From NCBI RefSeq assembly GCF_003334765.1, contig NZ_QOWT01000015.1: a stretch of DNA of 64,000 nt, one strand, 5' to 3'. The notes under the pieces were generated by a model that was given only the letters and a program-made list of their open reading frames with translations, did no database searches and had not been told where the DNA came from. Position numbers and translations under genes: made by a program. Of this stretch, positions 8,315-31,125 are shown piece by piece. How positions within the stretch are numbered: the first letter of the stretch is position 1; each line of letters opens with the position of its first letter. This DNA comes from Escherichia coli. Its GTDB lineage: Bacteria; Pseudomonadota; Gammaproteobacteria; Enterobacterales; Enterobacteriaceae.

Positions 8315-10384
8315 ATGTCTGAGAAAACTTTTCTGGTGGAAATCGGCACTGAAGAGCTGCCACCAAAAGCACTGCGCAGCCTGGCTGAGTCCTTTGCTGC
8401 GAACTTTACTGCGGAGCTGGATAACGCTGGCCTCGCACACGGCACCGTTCAATGGTTTGCTGCTCCGCGTCGTCTGGCGCTGAAAGTAGCTAACCTGGCG
8501 GAAGCGCAACCGGATCGTGAAATCGAAAAACGCGGCCCGGCGATTGCCCAGGCGTTCGACGCTGAAGGCAAACCGAGCAAAGCGGCAGAAGGTTGGGCGC
8601 GTGGTTGCGGTATTACCGTTGACCAGGCTGAGCGTCTGACTACCGATAAAGGCGAATGGCTGCTGTATCGCGCCCATGTGAAGGGCGAAAGCACCGAAGC
8701 ACTGCTGCCGAATATGGTTGCGACTTCTCTGGCGAAACTGCCGATCCCGAAACTGATGCGTTGGGGCGCAAGCGACGTGCACTTCGTGCGTCCGGTGCAC
8801 ACCGTGACCCTGCTGCTGGGCGACAAAGTCATTCCGGCAACCATTCTGGGCATTCAGTCCGATCGCGTGATTCGCGGCCACCGCTTTATGGGCGAGCCGG
8901 AATTCACCATCGATAACGCCGATCAGTATCCGGAAATTCTGCGTGAGCGTGGGAAAGTCATCGCCGATTACGAAGAACGTAAGGCGAAGATTAAAGCCGA
9001 TGCCGAAGAAGCAGCGCGTAAGATTGGCGGTAACGCTGACTTAAGCGAAAGCCTGCTGGAAGAAGTGGCTTCGCTGGTGGAGTGGCCGGTCGTTCTGACC
9101 GCAAAATTCGAAGAGAAATTCCTCGCGGTGCCGGCTGAAGCGCTGGTTTACACCATGAAAGGTGACCAGAAATACTTCCCGGTGTATGCGAACGACGGCA
9201 AACTGCTGCCGAACTTTATCTTCGTTGCCAACATCGAATCGAAAGATCCGCAGCAGATTATCTCCGGTAACGAGAAAGTCGTTCGTCCGCGTCTGGCGGA
9301 TGCCGAGTTCTTCTTCAACACCGACCGTAAAAAACGTCTTGAAGATAACCTGCCGCGCCTGCAAACCGTGTTGTTCCAGCAACAGTTGGGGACGCTGCGC
9401 GACAAAACTGACCGCATCCAGGCGCTGGCTGGCTGGATTGCTGAACAGATTGGCGCTGACGTTAACCACGCTACCCGTGCGGGTCTGCTGTCTAAGTGCG
9501 ACCTGATGACCAACATGGTCTTCGAGTTCACCGACACCCAGGGCGTTATGGGGATGCACTATGCGCGTCACGATGGCGAAGCGGAAGATGTCGCGGTGGC
9601 GCTGAATGAGCAGTATCAGCCGCGTTTTGCTGGTGATGACCTGCCGTCCAACCCAGTAGCTTGTGCGCTGGCGATTGCTGACAAGATGGATACCCTGGCG
9701 GGTATCTTCGGTATCGGTCAGCATCCGAAAGGCGACAAAGACCCGTTTGCGCTGCGTCGTGCCGCGCTTGGCGTGCTGCGAATTATCGTTGAGAAGAACC
9801 TCAACCTTGATCTGCAAACGCTGACCGAAGAAGCGGTGCGTCTGTATGGCGATAAGCTGACTAATGCCAACGTAGTTGATGATGTTATCGACTTTATGCT
9901 CGGTCGCTTCCGCGCCTGGTATCAGGACGAAGGTTATACCGTTGACACCATCCAGGCGGTACTGGCGCGTCGTCCGACTCGTCCGGCTGATTTCGATGCC
10001 CGTATGAAAGCGGTATCGCATTTCCGTACCCTGGATGCAGCTGCTGCACTGGCGGCGGCGAACAAACGTGTATCTAACATTCTGGCGAAATCTGACGAAG
10101 TGCTGAGCGACCGCGTGAATGCCTCTACCCTGAAAGAGCCGGAAGAAATTAAACTGGCGATGCAGGTTGTGGTGCTACGTGACAAGCTGGAGCCGTACTT
10201 TACGGAAGGTCGTTACCAGGATGCGCTGGTCGAACTGGCTGAGCTGCGTGAACCGGTTGATGCTTTCTTCGATAAAGTGATGGTCATGGTTGATGACAAA
10301 GAATTGCGTATCAACCGTCTGACCATGCTGGAGAAACTGCGCGAACTGTTCCTGCGCGTTGCGGATATTTCGCTGTTGCAATAA
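8315..10384 (+). CDS. glyS: Glycine--tRNA ligase beta subunit (689 aa)
   Basis: ORF track; [28 protein letters not shown]...; begins 9 bp after the glyQ stop (operon). Confidence 0.97.
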
Positions 10385-10401
10385 TAACGCCGTTATTAAA
10401 T

Positions 10402-10428
10402 AGCCTGCCATCTGGCAGGCTTTTTTTA
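10402..10428 (+). terminator. Intrinsic terminator of glyQS
   Basis: AGCCTGCC-ATCT-GGCAGGCT hairpin followed by TTTTTTT, 18 bp after the glyS stop. Confidence 0.8.
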
Positions 10429-10539
10429 TCGCTAAATAATACAGCAACCTTTAATAATCTTCTGCTGAATAAAGATTATCTCATATATTAATTTTATGAG
10501 ATTTTTTTAGGATTATATCAAGGAGAAGAAACAAACTTA

Positions 10540-10615
10540 TTAAGCTAGAATAGCCACGGGTGCTTGAGACTGTTTGTCTCAGGTATTCACCGAAAGGCAG
10601 ACAGAGAAAAGCCCC
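10540..10615 (-). ncRNA. sokA: Putative Sok-type antisense RNA of the hokA locus (approximate position)
   Basis: Inferred only from hok/sok architecture: the antisense RNA lies opposite the hok mRNA leader, roughly 50-120 nt upstream of the hok start. The region contains inverted repeats (GCTTGAGACTGTTTGTCTCAGG). Boundaries not determined. Confidence 0.2.
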
Positions 10616-10660
10616 ACCTGACTATAAATCAAAGTTGGAAATCAACACAGGAGGCTGGGA

Positions 10661-10813
10661 ATGCCGCAGAAATATAGATTACTTTCTTTAATAGTGATTT
10701 GTTTCACGCTTTTATTTTTCACCTGGATGATAAGAGATTCACTGTGTGAATTGCATATTAAACAGGAGAGTTATGAGCTGGCGGCGTTTTTAGCCTGCAA
10801 ATTGAAAGAGTAA
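10661..10813 (+). CDS. hokA: Hok-family type I toxin (50 aa)
   Basis: Hand-translated (too short for the ORF track): MPQKYRLLSLIVICFTLLFFTWMIRDSLCELHIKQESYELAAFLACKLKE; GGAGG SD 6-10 nt upstream; single transmembrane helix plus conserved Cys typical of Hok/Gef. Confidence 0.85.
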   Translation: MPQKYRLLSLIVICFTLLFFTWMIRDSLCELHIKQESYELAAFLACKLKE

Positions 10814-10999
10814 GAGTCTTCGGCGGGAAATTATTCCCGCCTTACTTACGGCGTTGCGCATTCTCATTGCACCCAAATTTATTCTTCACAAAAATAATAA
10901 TAGATTTTATTACGCGATCGATTATTTATTTCCTGAAAACAAATAAAAAAATCCCCGCCAAATGGCAGGGATCTTAGATTCTGTGCTTTTAAGCAGAGA

Positions 11000-11212
11000 T
11001 TACAGGCTGGTTACGTTACCAGCTGCCGGGCCTTTAGCGCCGCTTTCGATGGTGAAGGACACTTTCTGACCTTCGTCCAGAGATTTGTAACCATCGTTCT
11101 GGATAGCAGAGAAGTGTACGAACACATCTTTAGAGCCATCGTCAGGAGTGATGAAGCCGAAGCCTTTGTCAGCGTTGAACCATTTTACGATACCAGTCAT
11201 TTTACCGGACAT
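11000..11212 (-). CDS. cspA: Major cold-shock protein CspA (70 aa)
   Basis: ORF track; [38 protein letters not shown]... with the RNP1 motif KGFGFI. Confidence 0.97.
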
Positions 11213-22568: not shown

Positions 22569-22902
<334 letters not shown>

Positions 22903-22990
22903 CGTAGGCCTGATAAGACGCGTCAGCGTCGCATCAGGCAAATGTGCCGGCCATTGTCGGATGCGGCGCGACCGCCTTATTCGACCTACA
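22903..22990. repeat. REP / BIME palindromic element pair
   Basis: AGGCCTGATAAGACGCGTCAGCGTCGCATCAGGC and CGGATGCGGCGCGACCGCCTTATTCGACCTAC match the E. coli REP consensus family. Confidence 0.75.
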
Positions 22991-25200: not shown

Positions 25201-25300
25201 GCCTGATGCGCTCCGCTTATCAGGCCTACGAAAATTCTGCAATGTATTGAATTTGCACGATTTTGTAGGCCGGATAAGGCGTTAACGCCGCATCCGGCAT
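25201..25300. repeat. REP / BIME element in the dppA-dppB intergenic region
   Basis: GCCTGATGCGCTCCGCTTATCAGGCCTAC ... GTAGGCCGGATAAGGCGTTAACGCCGCATCCGGC: inverted REP pair. Confidence 0.8.
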
Positions 25301-31057: not shown

Positions 31058-31125
31058 AGAGAAAACCCCCGCACGTTGCAGGTATGCACCTGACAACACC
31101 ACGGGGGCTAATCTTGACTCTAGAC
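31058..31125 (-). ncRNA. rdlD: Rdl-type antisense regulatory RNA opposite the ldrD leader (approximate boundaries)
   Basis: Reverse strand reads GTCTAGAGTCAAGATTAGCCCCCGTGGTGTTGTCAGGTGCATACCTGCAACGTGCGGGGGTTTTCTCTC: a GC-rich hairpin plus U-run terminator ending ~31058, about 50 nt upstream of the ldrD ATG, as expected for ldr/rdl loci. Confidence 0.45.

What the first reader, a model, noticed from the sequence alone, without database searches (positions are those of the whole stretch)
10385..10999. Uninterrupted hokA type I toxin locus between glyS and cspA (no IS150)
A complete 50-codon Hok-family ORF with a strong SD sits 277 bp after the glyS stop, and the whole glyS-cspA gap is only ~615 bp. 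My recollection is that K-12 carries a ~1.4 kb IS150 (insJK) just upstream of hokA at this position; that comparison is from memory, not from this sequence. If correct, this strain keeps a potentially functional hok/mok/sok module, so the toxin could still be expressed and regulated by its antisense RNA.
Basis: partly seen in the sequence, partly recalled or inferred. Interest (0 to 1): 0.4.

Follow-up and report, generated by a model that had tools for sequence, protein, structure and literature searches.

The report
hokA toxin remnant with IS150 scar
The hokA toxin gene is present and IS150 is absent, but a 46-bp deletion, most likely left when IS150 was lost, has removed the start of the mok leader gene and the front half of the Sok antitoxin RNA, so this is an ordinary decayed remnant and not a working toxin-antitoxin module.

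Summary
A 50-codon hokA ORF (10661..10813, SD AGGAGG) starts 277 nt after glyS, in a 615-bp glyS-cspA gap with no IS150. K-12 does carry IS150 at this position.

Against intact hokA loci the window lacks 46 bp at 10633-10636. That segment holds the mokA SD and ATG, and the inferred -10 box, 5' tail and 5' hairpin arm of sokA.

The hokA promoter, tac/fbi pairing and ORF are kept. The hokA AUG stays fully base-paired in folds. In plasmid R1, Hok translation needs mok translation. The locus is therefore predicted to be a silent orphan toxin gene.

The deletion is most likely a scar of IS150 loss. Removing 1,451 bp (IS150 plus 8 bp, GTT microhomology) from the IS150-bearing isolate CFSAN061762 reproduces window 1-25000 with 0 mismatches.

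Among 5,426 complete E. coli genomes:
- about 52% have an uninterrupted gap
- about 28% carry the K-12-type IS150 allele
- 12% carry a second, independent IS150 insertion at the same site
- 17 (including NCTC86) share this exact junction

IS-free hokA loci have been known since 1999. Low interest.

The parts
10402..10421 (+). glyS intrinsic terminator (context; left border of the locus)
   Evidence: Terminator scan.
10546..10551 (+). Inferred -10 box (TAGAAT) of the hokA mRNA promoter, 6 nt before the mRNA 5' end
   Evidence: It aligns with the TATAAT of the K-12 hokC locus. Its position relative to Rfam model position 1 fits. Inferred, not mapped.
10558..10635 (+). Retained 5' part of the hokA mRNA leader. 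It begins with the tac element GGGUGCUUGAG and holds hairpins 1 and 2.
   Evidence: Rfam RF01794 match 10558..10663, 67.2 bits, model positions 1-83 aligned. tac-fbi pairing appears in the MFE fold.
10601..10635 (-). sokA 3' remnant (35 nt: loop, 3' arm of the terminator hairpin, U-tract). It has no promoter -10, no start and no 5' arm.
   Evidence: It corresponds base for base to the K-12 sokA pseudogene b4614. It does not fold (-7.2 kcal/mol, z +0.4), against -25 kcal/mol and z -3.9 for the intact SokA.
10633..10636 (.). Deletion junction (AGTT). 46 bp of the intact locus are missing here, which equals 1,451 bp of the IS150-bearing allele. The cut point is ambiguous over the GTT microhomology.
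   Evidence: Alignments. In silico excision gives 0 mismatches over 25,000 nt for cut points 10633-10636.
10640..10645 (-). Orphaned -35-like hexamer (TTGATT) of the inferred sokA promoter. Its -10 partner (TAACCT or TATGGT) lies in the deleted 46 bp.
   Evidence: Read from the sequence and from homology to the K-12 sokC start. Inferred.
10634..10660 (+). mokA remnant: the last 9 codons of the leader that lie upstream of hokA, in frame with hokA, with no start codon. An in-frame TAA lies at 10625-10627, and there is no ATG, GTG or TTG before hokA.
   Evidence: Direct reading. The intact mokA is 70 aa with its ATG 20 codons upstream of hokA. K-12 annotates the mokA pseudogene b4647 here.
10649..10654 (+). 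hokA Shine-Dalgarno sequence AGGAGG
10661..10813 (+). hokA CDS, 50 aa, identical to K-12 HokA
10779..10800 (+). Segment within hokA codons 40-47 that pairs with the hokA SD/AUG region in predicted folds
   Evidence: MFE and partition-function folds. P(unpaired) of the AUG is 0.001 in both full-length and 3'-truncated mRNA.
10822..10841 (+). 3' stem-loop GGCGGGAAAUUAUUCCCGCC of the hokA mRNA, the presumed end of the processed form
   Evidence: Folds. Assigned by analogy with R1 hok mRNA (PMC9841398).
10862..10874 (+). fbi element (UCUCAUUGCACCC), which pairs with tac at the mRNA 5' end
   Evidence: MFE folds of the window and intact alleles both close 5' on 3', with z -6.4 and -8.6.
10790..10861 (-). 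ysaE small ORF (23 aa), antisense to the hokA 3' end. It is annotated in K-12 (b4793) and in relatives, and is not part of the TA module.
   Evidence: Annotation transfer.

Best explanation
This is the chromosomal hokA type I toxin locus in a decayed state.

Shown:
- The hokA ORF, its SD and the tac and fbi elements are present and identical to K-12. The mRNA promoter region is also identical, though the promoter itself is only inferred.
- 46 bp present in intact hokA loci are missing at 10633-10636.
- That segment contains the mokA SD, ATG and first 11 codons.
- It also contains the part of the antisense strand that gives SokA its 5' tail and the 5' arm of its hairpin.

Inferred:
1. With no mok translation initiation region, ribosomes cannot open the helix that buries the hokA SD/AUG. 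HokA is then not made, even though the mRNA is probably transcribed from its own promoter.
2. No SokA is made, and its target site is gone, so there is neither antitoxin nor any need for one.
3. The allele arose from the K-12-type allele. That allele has IS150 inserted in sokA plus a 40-bp adjacent deletion. The whole IS and 8 flanking bp (1,451 bp) were then lost between two GTT triplets. The 46-bp gap is therefore an IS150 excision scar, not an ancestral IS-free state.
For: Deletion and its content:
- Alignment with HH97 and O157 intact loci and junction strings.
- Intact mokA is 70 aa, in frame with hokA.
- Intact SokA folds into a -25 kcal/mol hairpin with an 8-10 nt 5' tail; the window equivalent is unstructured.
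- The K-12 annotation places the sokA pseudogene on the glyS side and the mokA pseudogene on the hokA side of IS150.
- The sokC start lies 8 nt inside mokC, and the loci align.
- Rfam RF01794 scores 119.3 bits on the intact locus and 67.2 bits on the window, with model positions ~84-149 missing.

Silencing:
- The hokA AUG has P(unpaired) 0.001 in all four modelled mRNAs.
- tac/fbi closure is retained.
- In R1 hok/Sok, single substitutions in the mok start codon or the GAGG SD abolish Hok toxicity, and mok translation up to the hok SD is mandatory (PMC9841398).
- There is no in-frame start upstream of hokA in the window.

IS150 scar:
- The window is colinear with MG1655 over 64 kb, with 12 SNPs, and differs otherwise only by the IS150 segment.
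- The best 25-kb matches are all 100.0% identical with a span of 25,000 + 1,451 bp.
- Deleting 1,451 bp from CFSAN061762 at any of 4 equivalent positions gives 0 mismatches over 25,000 nt.
- The K-12 allele still holds TACTC of the intact sequence, which the window lacks, so the window cannot be its ancestor.

Real variant:
- 17 independent complete genomes share the junction, including two separate NCTC86 assemblies.
Against: - The same product can arise directly from an intact allele by a 46-bp deletion between two GT dinucleotides.
- One genome, EcN_Sk, has an intact locus on a nearly identical 8-kb haplotype. An intact progenitor on this background is therefore not excluded.
- The sokA promoter and start are inferred by homology. 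The consensus promoter scan found nothing there, even in the intact locus.
- Silence of hokA rests on in silico folds and on analogy with R1. hokA has a strong SD of its own.
- Nothing here measures RNA or protein.
Confidence: 0.8

Rival explanations
1. The 46-bp deletion arose directly in a never-occupied, intact hokA locus by slippage between two GT dinucleotides. IS150 was never involved in this lineage.
For: The junction is compatible with it. EcN_Sk shows that an intact allele exists on an almost identical local 8-kb haplotype.
Against: - Both deletion end points would have to fall by chance within 1 nt and 5 nt of the two K-12 IS150 junctions.
- The closest genomes over 25 kb (0 mismatches) all carry IS150.
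- EcN_Sk diverges outside the central 8 kb, with 64 mismatches in 20 kb.
Confidence: 0.13
2. One reading: an intact, potentially functional hok/mok/sok module in which antisense SokA regulates the toxin.
For: The ORF, SD, probable promoter, tac and fbi are present. The Rfam hit is above its gathering score.
Against: The mokA SD and ATG, and the inferred sokA -10, start and 5' half, are deleted. The Rfam alignment lacks two hairpins.
Confidence: 0.02
3. hokA here is an antitoxin-less toxin gene that is still translated at a low or conditional level from its own strong SD, without mok, and has a physiological role such as membrane depolarisation or persistence.
For: - The native promoter is rejoined to the ORF, unlike in K-12.
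- The SD is AGGAGG with ideal spacing.
- The HokA CDS is toxic when expressed (bioRxiv 10.1101/2025.08.07.668861).
- The ORF is undamaged in all 17 genomes examined or annotated.
Against: - The hokA AUG is fully paired in predicted structures.
- R1 data show a strict dependence on mok (PMC9841398).
- Even the intact hokA locus of E. coli C gave no post-segregational killing or rifampicin-induced killing, as reported in 10.1101/2025.08.07.668861 citing Pedersen and Gerdes 1999.
- Conservation of the ORF is also seen in K-12, where it is cut off from its promoter, so it may simply reflect the short time elapsed.
Confidence: 0.08
4. Assembly artefact: an IS150 copy collapsed out of the assembly.
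For: IS elements are a common source of assembly errors.
Against: Collapse would not also remove 8 flanking bp. The identical junction occurs in 17 complete genomes from different laboratories and platforms.
Confidence: 0.01

Closest known systems
hokA / mokA' / sokA' locus of E. coli K-12 MG1655 (b4455, b4647, b4614) with IS150 (insJK)
   Same: The chromosomal site is the same, between glyS and cspA. HokA is identical. The flanks are identical (12 SNPs in 64 kb). The same 40 bp of the mok/sok overlap are missing, and the same 35-nt sokA remnant is present.
   Different: The window lacks the 1,443-bp IS150 and a further 8 bp (T on the left, TACTCGT on the right, read through the GTT repeat). 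The hokA promoter and tac leader are therefore rejoined to the ORF.
Intact (IS-free) chromosomal hokA/mokA/sokA loci of wild-type E. coli. Examples here are HH97, O157:H7 and O91:H21. E. coli C and ECOR strains were described by Pedersen and Gerdes 1999, as cited in PMC7337300 and bioRxiv 10.1101/2025.08.07.668861.
   Same: Position, promoter region, tac, fbi, hokA ORF and 3' stem-loop are the same. There is no IS.
   Different: Those loci keep the 46 bp with the mokA SD/ATG and the SokA 5' half. They score 119 bits on RF01794 against 67 here. Even those loci did not mediate post-segregational killing, according to the cited work.
hok/mok/Sok (parB) of plasmid R1
   Same: The toxin belongs to the Hok/Gef family. 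The mRNA has tac-fbi closure and a buried hok translation start. In intact hokA alleles there is a 70-codon mok with a GAGG SD, and a short Sok with a 5' tail and a hairpin (PMC9841398, PMC1635323).
   Different: In the window the mok initiation region, the Sok target and the front half of the Sok gene are deleted. The R1 regulatory circuit therefore cannot operate.
hokC/mokC/sokC of E. coli K-12
   Same: The leader is homologous from the -10 box through tac to the mok start. mok is in frame with hok, and sokC starts 8 nt inside mokC.
   Different: hokC keeps mokC and sokC, although IS186 lies next to it. The window has lost the equivalent segment.
Recurrent IS150 insertion next to hok/sok and ldr loci in experimental evolution of E. 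coli B (PMC5419217)
   Same: IS150 repeatedly lands in the cis-regulatory region of hok loci. The natural hokA locus shows two independent IS150 insertions at the same nucleotide.
   Different: The window represents the step after that: loss of the IS, leaving a deletion.

Membership tests
[quoted passage not shown] | Small (~50 aa) hydrophobic Hok/Gef-family toxin ORF | tested here: met
   PF01848 E = 1.6e-21. NCBIfam HokA equivalog 129.7 bits against a cut-off of 89. Identical to K-12 HokA.
[quoted passage not shown] | Overlapping mok leader ORF with its own SD and start, whose translation is needed for hok translation | tested here: not met
   The mokA SD GAGG, ATG and first 11 codons lie in the missing 46 bp. 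There is an in-frame TAA at 10625-10627 and no start codon before hokA.
[quoted passage not shown] | Cis-encoded antisense Sok RNA (promoter, single-stranded 5' tail, terminator hairpin) complementary to the mok initiation region | tested here: not met
   Only the 35-nt 3' remnant is left (10601-10635, -). It does not fold. The -10 and start are inferred to lie in the deleted segment. Transcription was not measured.
[quoted passage not shown] | Long-range tac (5') - fbi (3') pairing that closes the full-length mRNA | tested here: met
   The MFE and centroid folds pair GGGUGC/UGAGA with UCUCA/GCACCC, z -6.4. In silico only.
[quoted passage not shown] | Complete hok leader structure as modelled by RF01794 (four hairpins up to the hok AUG) | tested here: inconclusive
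   The score of 67.2 bits is above the gathering score of 59, but hairpins 3 and 4 (66 model positions) are absent. An intact locus scores 119.3 bits.
[quoted passage not shown] | Toxicity of Hok when the antitoxin is absent; post-segregational killing | not testable with these tools
   Literature only. The HokA CDS is toxic on induction, and the intact hokA locus of E. coli C did not give post-segregational killing (bioRxiv 10.1101/2025.08.07.668861).
IS excision scar (imprecise loss of IS150) | The sequence equals that of an IS-bearing relative minus the IS and a few flanking bases, with microhomology at the junction | tested here: met
   CFSAN061762 minus 1,451 bp equals window 1-25000 with 0 mismatches. 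There are 4 equivalent cut points, reflecting the GTT repeat.
IS excision scar (imprecise loss of IS150) | The scar allele is nested phylogenetically within IS-bearing lineages | tested here: inconclusive
   The nearest 25-kb matches all carry IS150. The window shares alleles at 2369 and 7536 with CFSAN061762, not with MG1655 or EcN_Sk. No whole-genome tree was built, and EcN_Sk has an intact allele on the same 8-kb haplotype.

The most novel reading that the evidence does not exclude
The rejoined, Mok-less and Sok-less hokA could be a naturally 'unguarded' toxin gene. It would be transcribed from its own promoter and kept silent only by mRNA structure. If so, the 17 strains (including Escherich's NCTC86) would be a natural test of whether chromosomal hok translation can occur without mok. 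In addition, the fact that IS150 hit the same nucleotide of sokA twice in nature could reflect a specific target preference of IS150 for the Sok hairpin, or selection to disarm hok loci.
Probability: 0.08. Interest if true: 0.35.

Novelty: already known. Interest (0 to 1): 0.1.

Why it matters
It matters little beyond correct annotation.

- An automatic pipeline labels this gene 'type I toxin-antitoxin system toxin HokA'. A reader seeing no IS150 could take the module for functional, but it has neither a mok start nor a Sok gene.
- The case shows that absence of an IS does not imply the ancestral state. Here it is most likely a secondary loss that left a 46-bp scar.
- The allele survey gives a compact picture of how one chromosomal hok locus decays in E. 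coli: about 52% uninterrupted, about 28% K-12-type IS150 with a deletion, 12% a second IS150 insertion at the same nucleotide, and 0.3% the scar.
- That picture agrees with the long-standing view that chromosomal hok/sok loci are often inactivated, and with IS150 hitting such loci repeatedly in evolution experiments.

Tried and rejected
1. The consensus promoter/terminator scan found neither the hokA nor the sokA promoter, even in the intact locus. It was uninformative, so promoter positions rest on homology with hokC/sokC.
2. Paper searches with 'hokA/sokA' as word starts were swamped by unrelated words. Pedersen and Gerdes 1999 is not held, so its content is cited second-hand. No paper in the library holds both IS150 and hokB.
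3. HH97 as 'nearest intact genome' first suggested a clear flank difference (42 SNPs in 20.6 kb). The SNPs, however, start only 370 nt to the left and 2 kb to the right of the junction, so that argument was weak. I therefore searched with the window plus the restored 46 bp. This found EcN_Sk, with an intact allele on a near-identical 8-kb haplotype, and it lowers my confidence in the scar origin from near certainty to about 0.85.
4. I considered that the window allele might be the ancestor of the K-12 allele. I rejected this because K-12 keeps TACTC of the intact sequence.
5. I considered an engineered IS-free K-12 strain. I set this aside because the junction occurs in natural isolates, including NCTC86.
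6. Two + strand ORFs run across the hokA start (10560..10691 from GTG, 10564..10677 from TTG) and were considered as surrogate leaders. I rejected them because their starts sit at mRNA nucleotides +3 and +7, inside the tac stem, with no SD.
7. A fortuitous new sok promoter (TTGATT ... TATAGT on the - strand) was considered. The spacer is only 13 nt and the transcript would lack the hairpin.
8. The STnc370 hit at 10392..10459 (-) scores 33.6 bits against a gathering score of 54 and overlaps the glyS terminator. I treated it as chance.

Full report
**1. Observation**

The sequence is as described.
- glyS (8315..10384) ends at 10384.
- A 50-codon ORF runs 10661..10813 on the + strand, preceded by AGGAGG (10649-10654) and a 6-nt spacer.
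- cspA lies at 11000..11212 on the - strand, so the gap is 615 bp.
- The ORF is HokA. Pfam HOK_GEF gives E = 1.6e-21. The NCBIfam HokA equivalog gives 129.7 bits against a cut-off of 89. The sequence is identical to K-12 HokA.
IS150 (1,443 bp, insJK) sits between glyS and hokA, with a 35-nt sokA pseudogene on the glyS side and a mokA pseudogene on the hokA side.

**2.

A search of 5,426 complete E. coli genomes with the 615-bp gap returned full-length matches that span 661-665 bp in two pieces. Aligning the window with two such loci (HH97 and an O157:H7 strain) shows that the window lacks 46 bp. The missing sequence is GTGAGGCCCCTCTATGCATAGACACCATAAGGTTAGCCTCTTACTC, and the junction lies at 10633-10636.

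**3. What the 46 bp encode**

In the intact locus an ATG inside this segment, preceded by GAGG, opens a 70-codon frame. It runs in frame into hokA: MHRHHKVSLLLVGNQHRRLG followed by HokA. This mirrors the 70-codon mok with a GAGG SD of plasmid R1 (PMC9841398), and K-12 mokC.

On the other strand, the segment plus the 35 nt to its left fold into a strong hairpin followed by a U-tract. The fold is -25 kcal/mol with z -3.9, and it leaves an 8-10 nt single-stranded 5' tail. This is the Sok architecture described for R1 (PMC1635323).

K-12 sokC starts 8 nt inside mokC, and the hokA and hokC leaders align through this region. That places the sokA start, and either candidate -10 box (TAACCT or TATGGT), inside the 46 bp. 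Only a -35-like TTGATT survives, at 10640-10645 (-).

The window equivalent of SokA does not fold (-7.2 kcal/mol, z +0.4).

Rfam RF01794 is named 'sok', but it matches the sense strand from GGGUGCUUGA to the hok AUG. It scores 119.3 bits over its full length on the intact locus. On the window it scores 67.2 bits, with two hairpins (66 model positions) missing.

**4. What remains and what it implies**

The putative hokA mRNA promoter (-10 TAGAAT, 10546-10551) and the tac element at the 5' end (10558) are intact. So are the fbi element (10862-10874) and the 3' stem-loop (10822-10841). Both alleles fold with the 5' end closed on the 3' end.

In partition-function folds the hokA AUG is paired with codons 40-47 (10779-10800). 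P(unpaired) is 0.001 for both alleles, in both full-length and 3'-truncated mRNA. The deletion therefore does not expose the hokA start.

Upstream of hokA there is an in-frame TAA at 10625-10627 and no start codon. In R1, substitutions in the mok start codon or SD abolish Hok toxicity, and mok translation up to the hok SD is mandatory (PMC9841398).

I therefore infer that the mRNA is probably made but HokA is not translated. No SokA is made either, and its target is absent. This step is an inference from structure prediction and analogy, not a measurement.

**5. Origin of the deletion**

Three alleles can be written across the junction:
- intact: ATCAAAG-TGAGG...(46 bp)...CTCGTT-GGAAATC
- K-12 type: ATCAAAGTT-[IS150]-TACTCGTT-GGAAATC
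- window: ATCAAAGTT-GGAAATC

The K-12 type lacks about 40 of the 46 bp but keeps TACTC, so it derives from the intact allele and not from the window allele. The window can derive from the K-12 type by loss of 1,451 bp between two GTT triplets. It can also derive from the intact allele by loss of 46 bp between two GT dinucleotides.

Evidence for the first route:
- The window is colinear with MG1655 over all 64 kb, with only 12 SNPs and no other indel.
- The 30 best matches to window 1-25000 are 100.0% identical and span exactly 25,000 + 1,451 bp.
- Deleting 1,451 bp from the natural isolate CFSAN061762 at any of four equivalent positions reproduces window 1-25000 with 0 mismatches. This includes the two positions (2369, 7536) where the window differs from MG1655.
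- Under the second route, both deletion end points would have to fall by chance within 1 nt and 5 nt of the IS150 junctions.

Evidence against the first route: a search with the 46 bp restored found one genome, EcN_Sk, with an intact locus on a nearly identical 8-kb haplotype. That genome diverges outside this stretch, with 64 mismatches in 20 kb.

I put the scar origin at about 0.85.

**6. Population picture**

Among 5,426 complete genomes:
- 2,831 have an uninterrupted gap.
- 3,762 retain the 46-bp segment.
- 1,471 carry the K-12-type left junction and 1,573 the right junction.
- 652 have a second, independent IS150 insertion. It is in the opposite orientation, has a clean AAG target duplication and lies at the same nucleotide (ATCAAAG^). 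ST131 is among these genomes.
- 17 share the window's exact junction. These include two NCTC86 assemblies, B-1109, EC2, H3 and FDAARGOS_1248. B-1109 is identical to the window over 20 kb.

The variant is therefore real, natural and rare. Absence of IS150, by contrast, is the majority state.

**7. Comparison with what is known**

- PMC7337300, citing Pedersen and Gerdes 1999 and a review, reports that K-12 hok loci appear to be inactivated by insertion elements close to the toxin frames. [quoted passage not shown]
- bioRxiv 10.1101/2025.08.07.668861 reports that the intact hokA locus of E. coli C did not mediate post-segregational killing, while the HokA CDS is toxic when expressed.
- K-12 has a single IS150 copy (PMC3032704, Table 3).

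The finding is thus a known locus in a further-decayed state. The only new detail is that this IS-free allele is probably secondary.

**8. Verdict**

Novelty: already known. Interest is low (0.1).

Noticed in passing
window 10633-10636; L015 2010-3452 (TUM1886); L021 (ST131 strain 4993); L003/L011 (K-12 type): IS150 has inserted at the same nucleotide of sokA (ATCAAAG^) at least twice independently, in opposite orientations. One event carries a 40-bp adjacent deletion (K-12 type, ~1,470-1,570 genomes). The other has a clean AAG duplication (652 genomes, including ST131). This echoes IS150 hits next to hok loci in evolution experiments (PMC5419217). Whether it reflects target preference or selection is open.
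   Followed up: partly
window 10790..10861 (-): A small ORF, ysaE (23 aa, MRNAVSKAGIISRRRLLLFQFAG), lies antisense to the 3' end of hokA and its 3' stem-loop. It is annotated in K-12 (b4793) and in relatives. Any interplay with hokA mRNA is unexplored.
   Followed up: no
L020 401-465, L021 401-460 (related loci); The 46-bp mok/sok overlap exists in two haplotypes about 9% apart (GGCCCCTCTATGCATAGAC versus GGCTACCCTATGCCTGAAC). The second is in about 2,460 genomes. It changes both the early mokA codons and the SokA stem and tail. I did not check whether the changes are compensatory.
   Followed up: no
window ~22627-22902: There is a 168-bp tandem unit downstream of tRNA-Pro (proK), containing the RtT-like element (Rfam RF00391 at 22680..22813). 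It is present in one more copy in the window, MG1655 and FDAARGOS_1248 than in NCTC86, EC2 and H3.
   Followed up: no
window 31060..31125 (-): rdlD antisense RNA (Rfam RF01813, 87 bits) belongs to the ldrD/rdlD type I toxin-antitoxin locus, a second type I system in the window. It is colinear with K-12.
   Followed up: no
L016 1631-2002 (strain 1579): Some genomes carry an extra ~400 bp between hokA and cspA, with a 372-nt ORF that RefSeq names 'yidD' (membrane protein insertion efficiency factor). It is absent from the window.
   Followed up: no
window 10560..10691 and 10564..10677 (+): Two mechanical ORFs start at mRNA nucleotides +3 (GTG) and +7 (TTG) and read across the deletion junction and the hokA start. 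They have no SD and lie inside the tac stem, so they are probably meaningless.
   Followed up: partly
window 2369 and 7536, and 10 positions in 21762-64000: The window differs from MG1655 by only 12 substitutions in 64 kb, with no indel other than the IS150 segment. It comes from a very close natural relative of K-12 (ST10-like), identical over 20 kb to strain B-1109.
   Followed up: partly
window 22907..22986 (-) and 25222..25264 (-): Rfam hits to naRNA4 (RF02564, 69 bits) and ES036 (RF02751, 56.7 bits), both above their gathering scores. Not examined.
   Followed up: no
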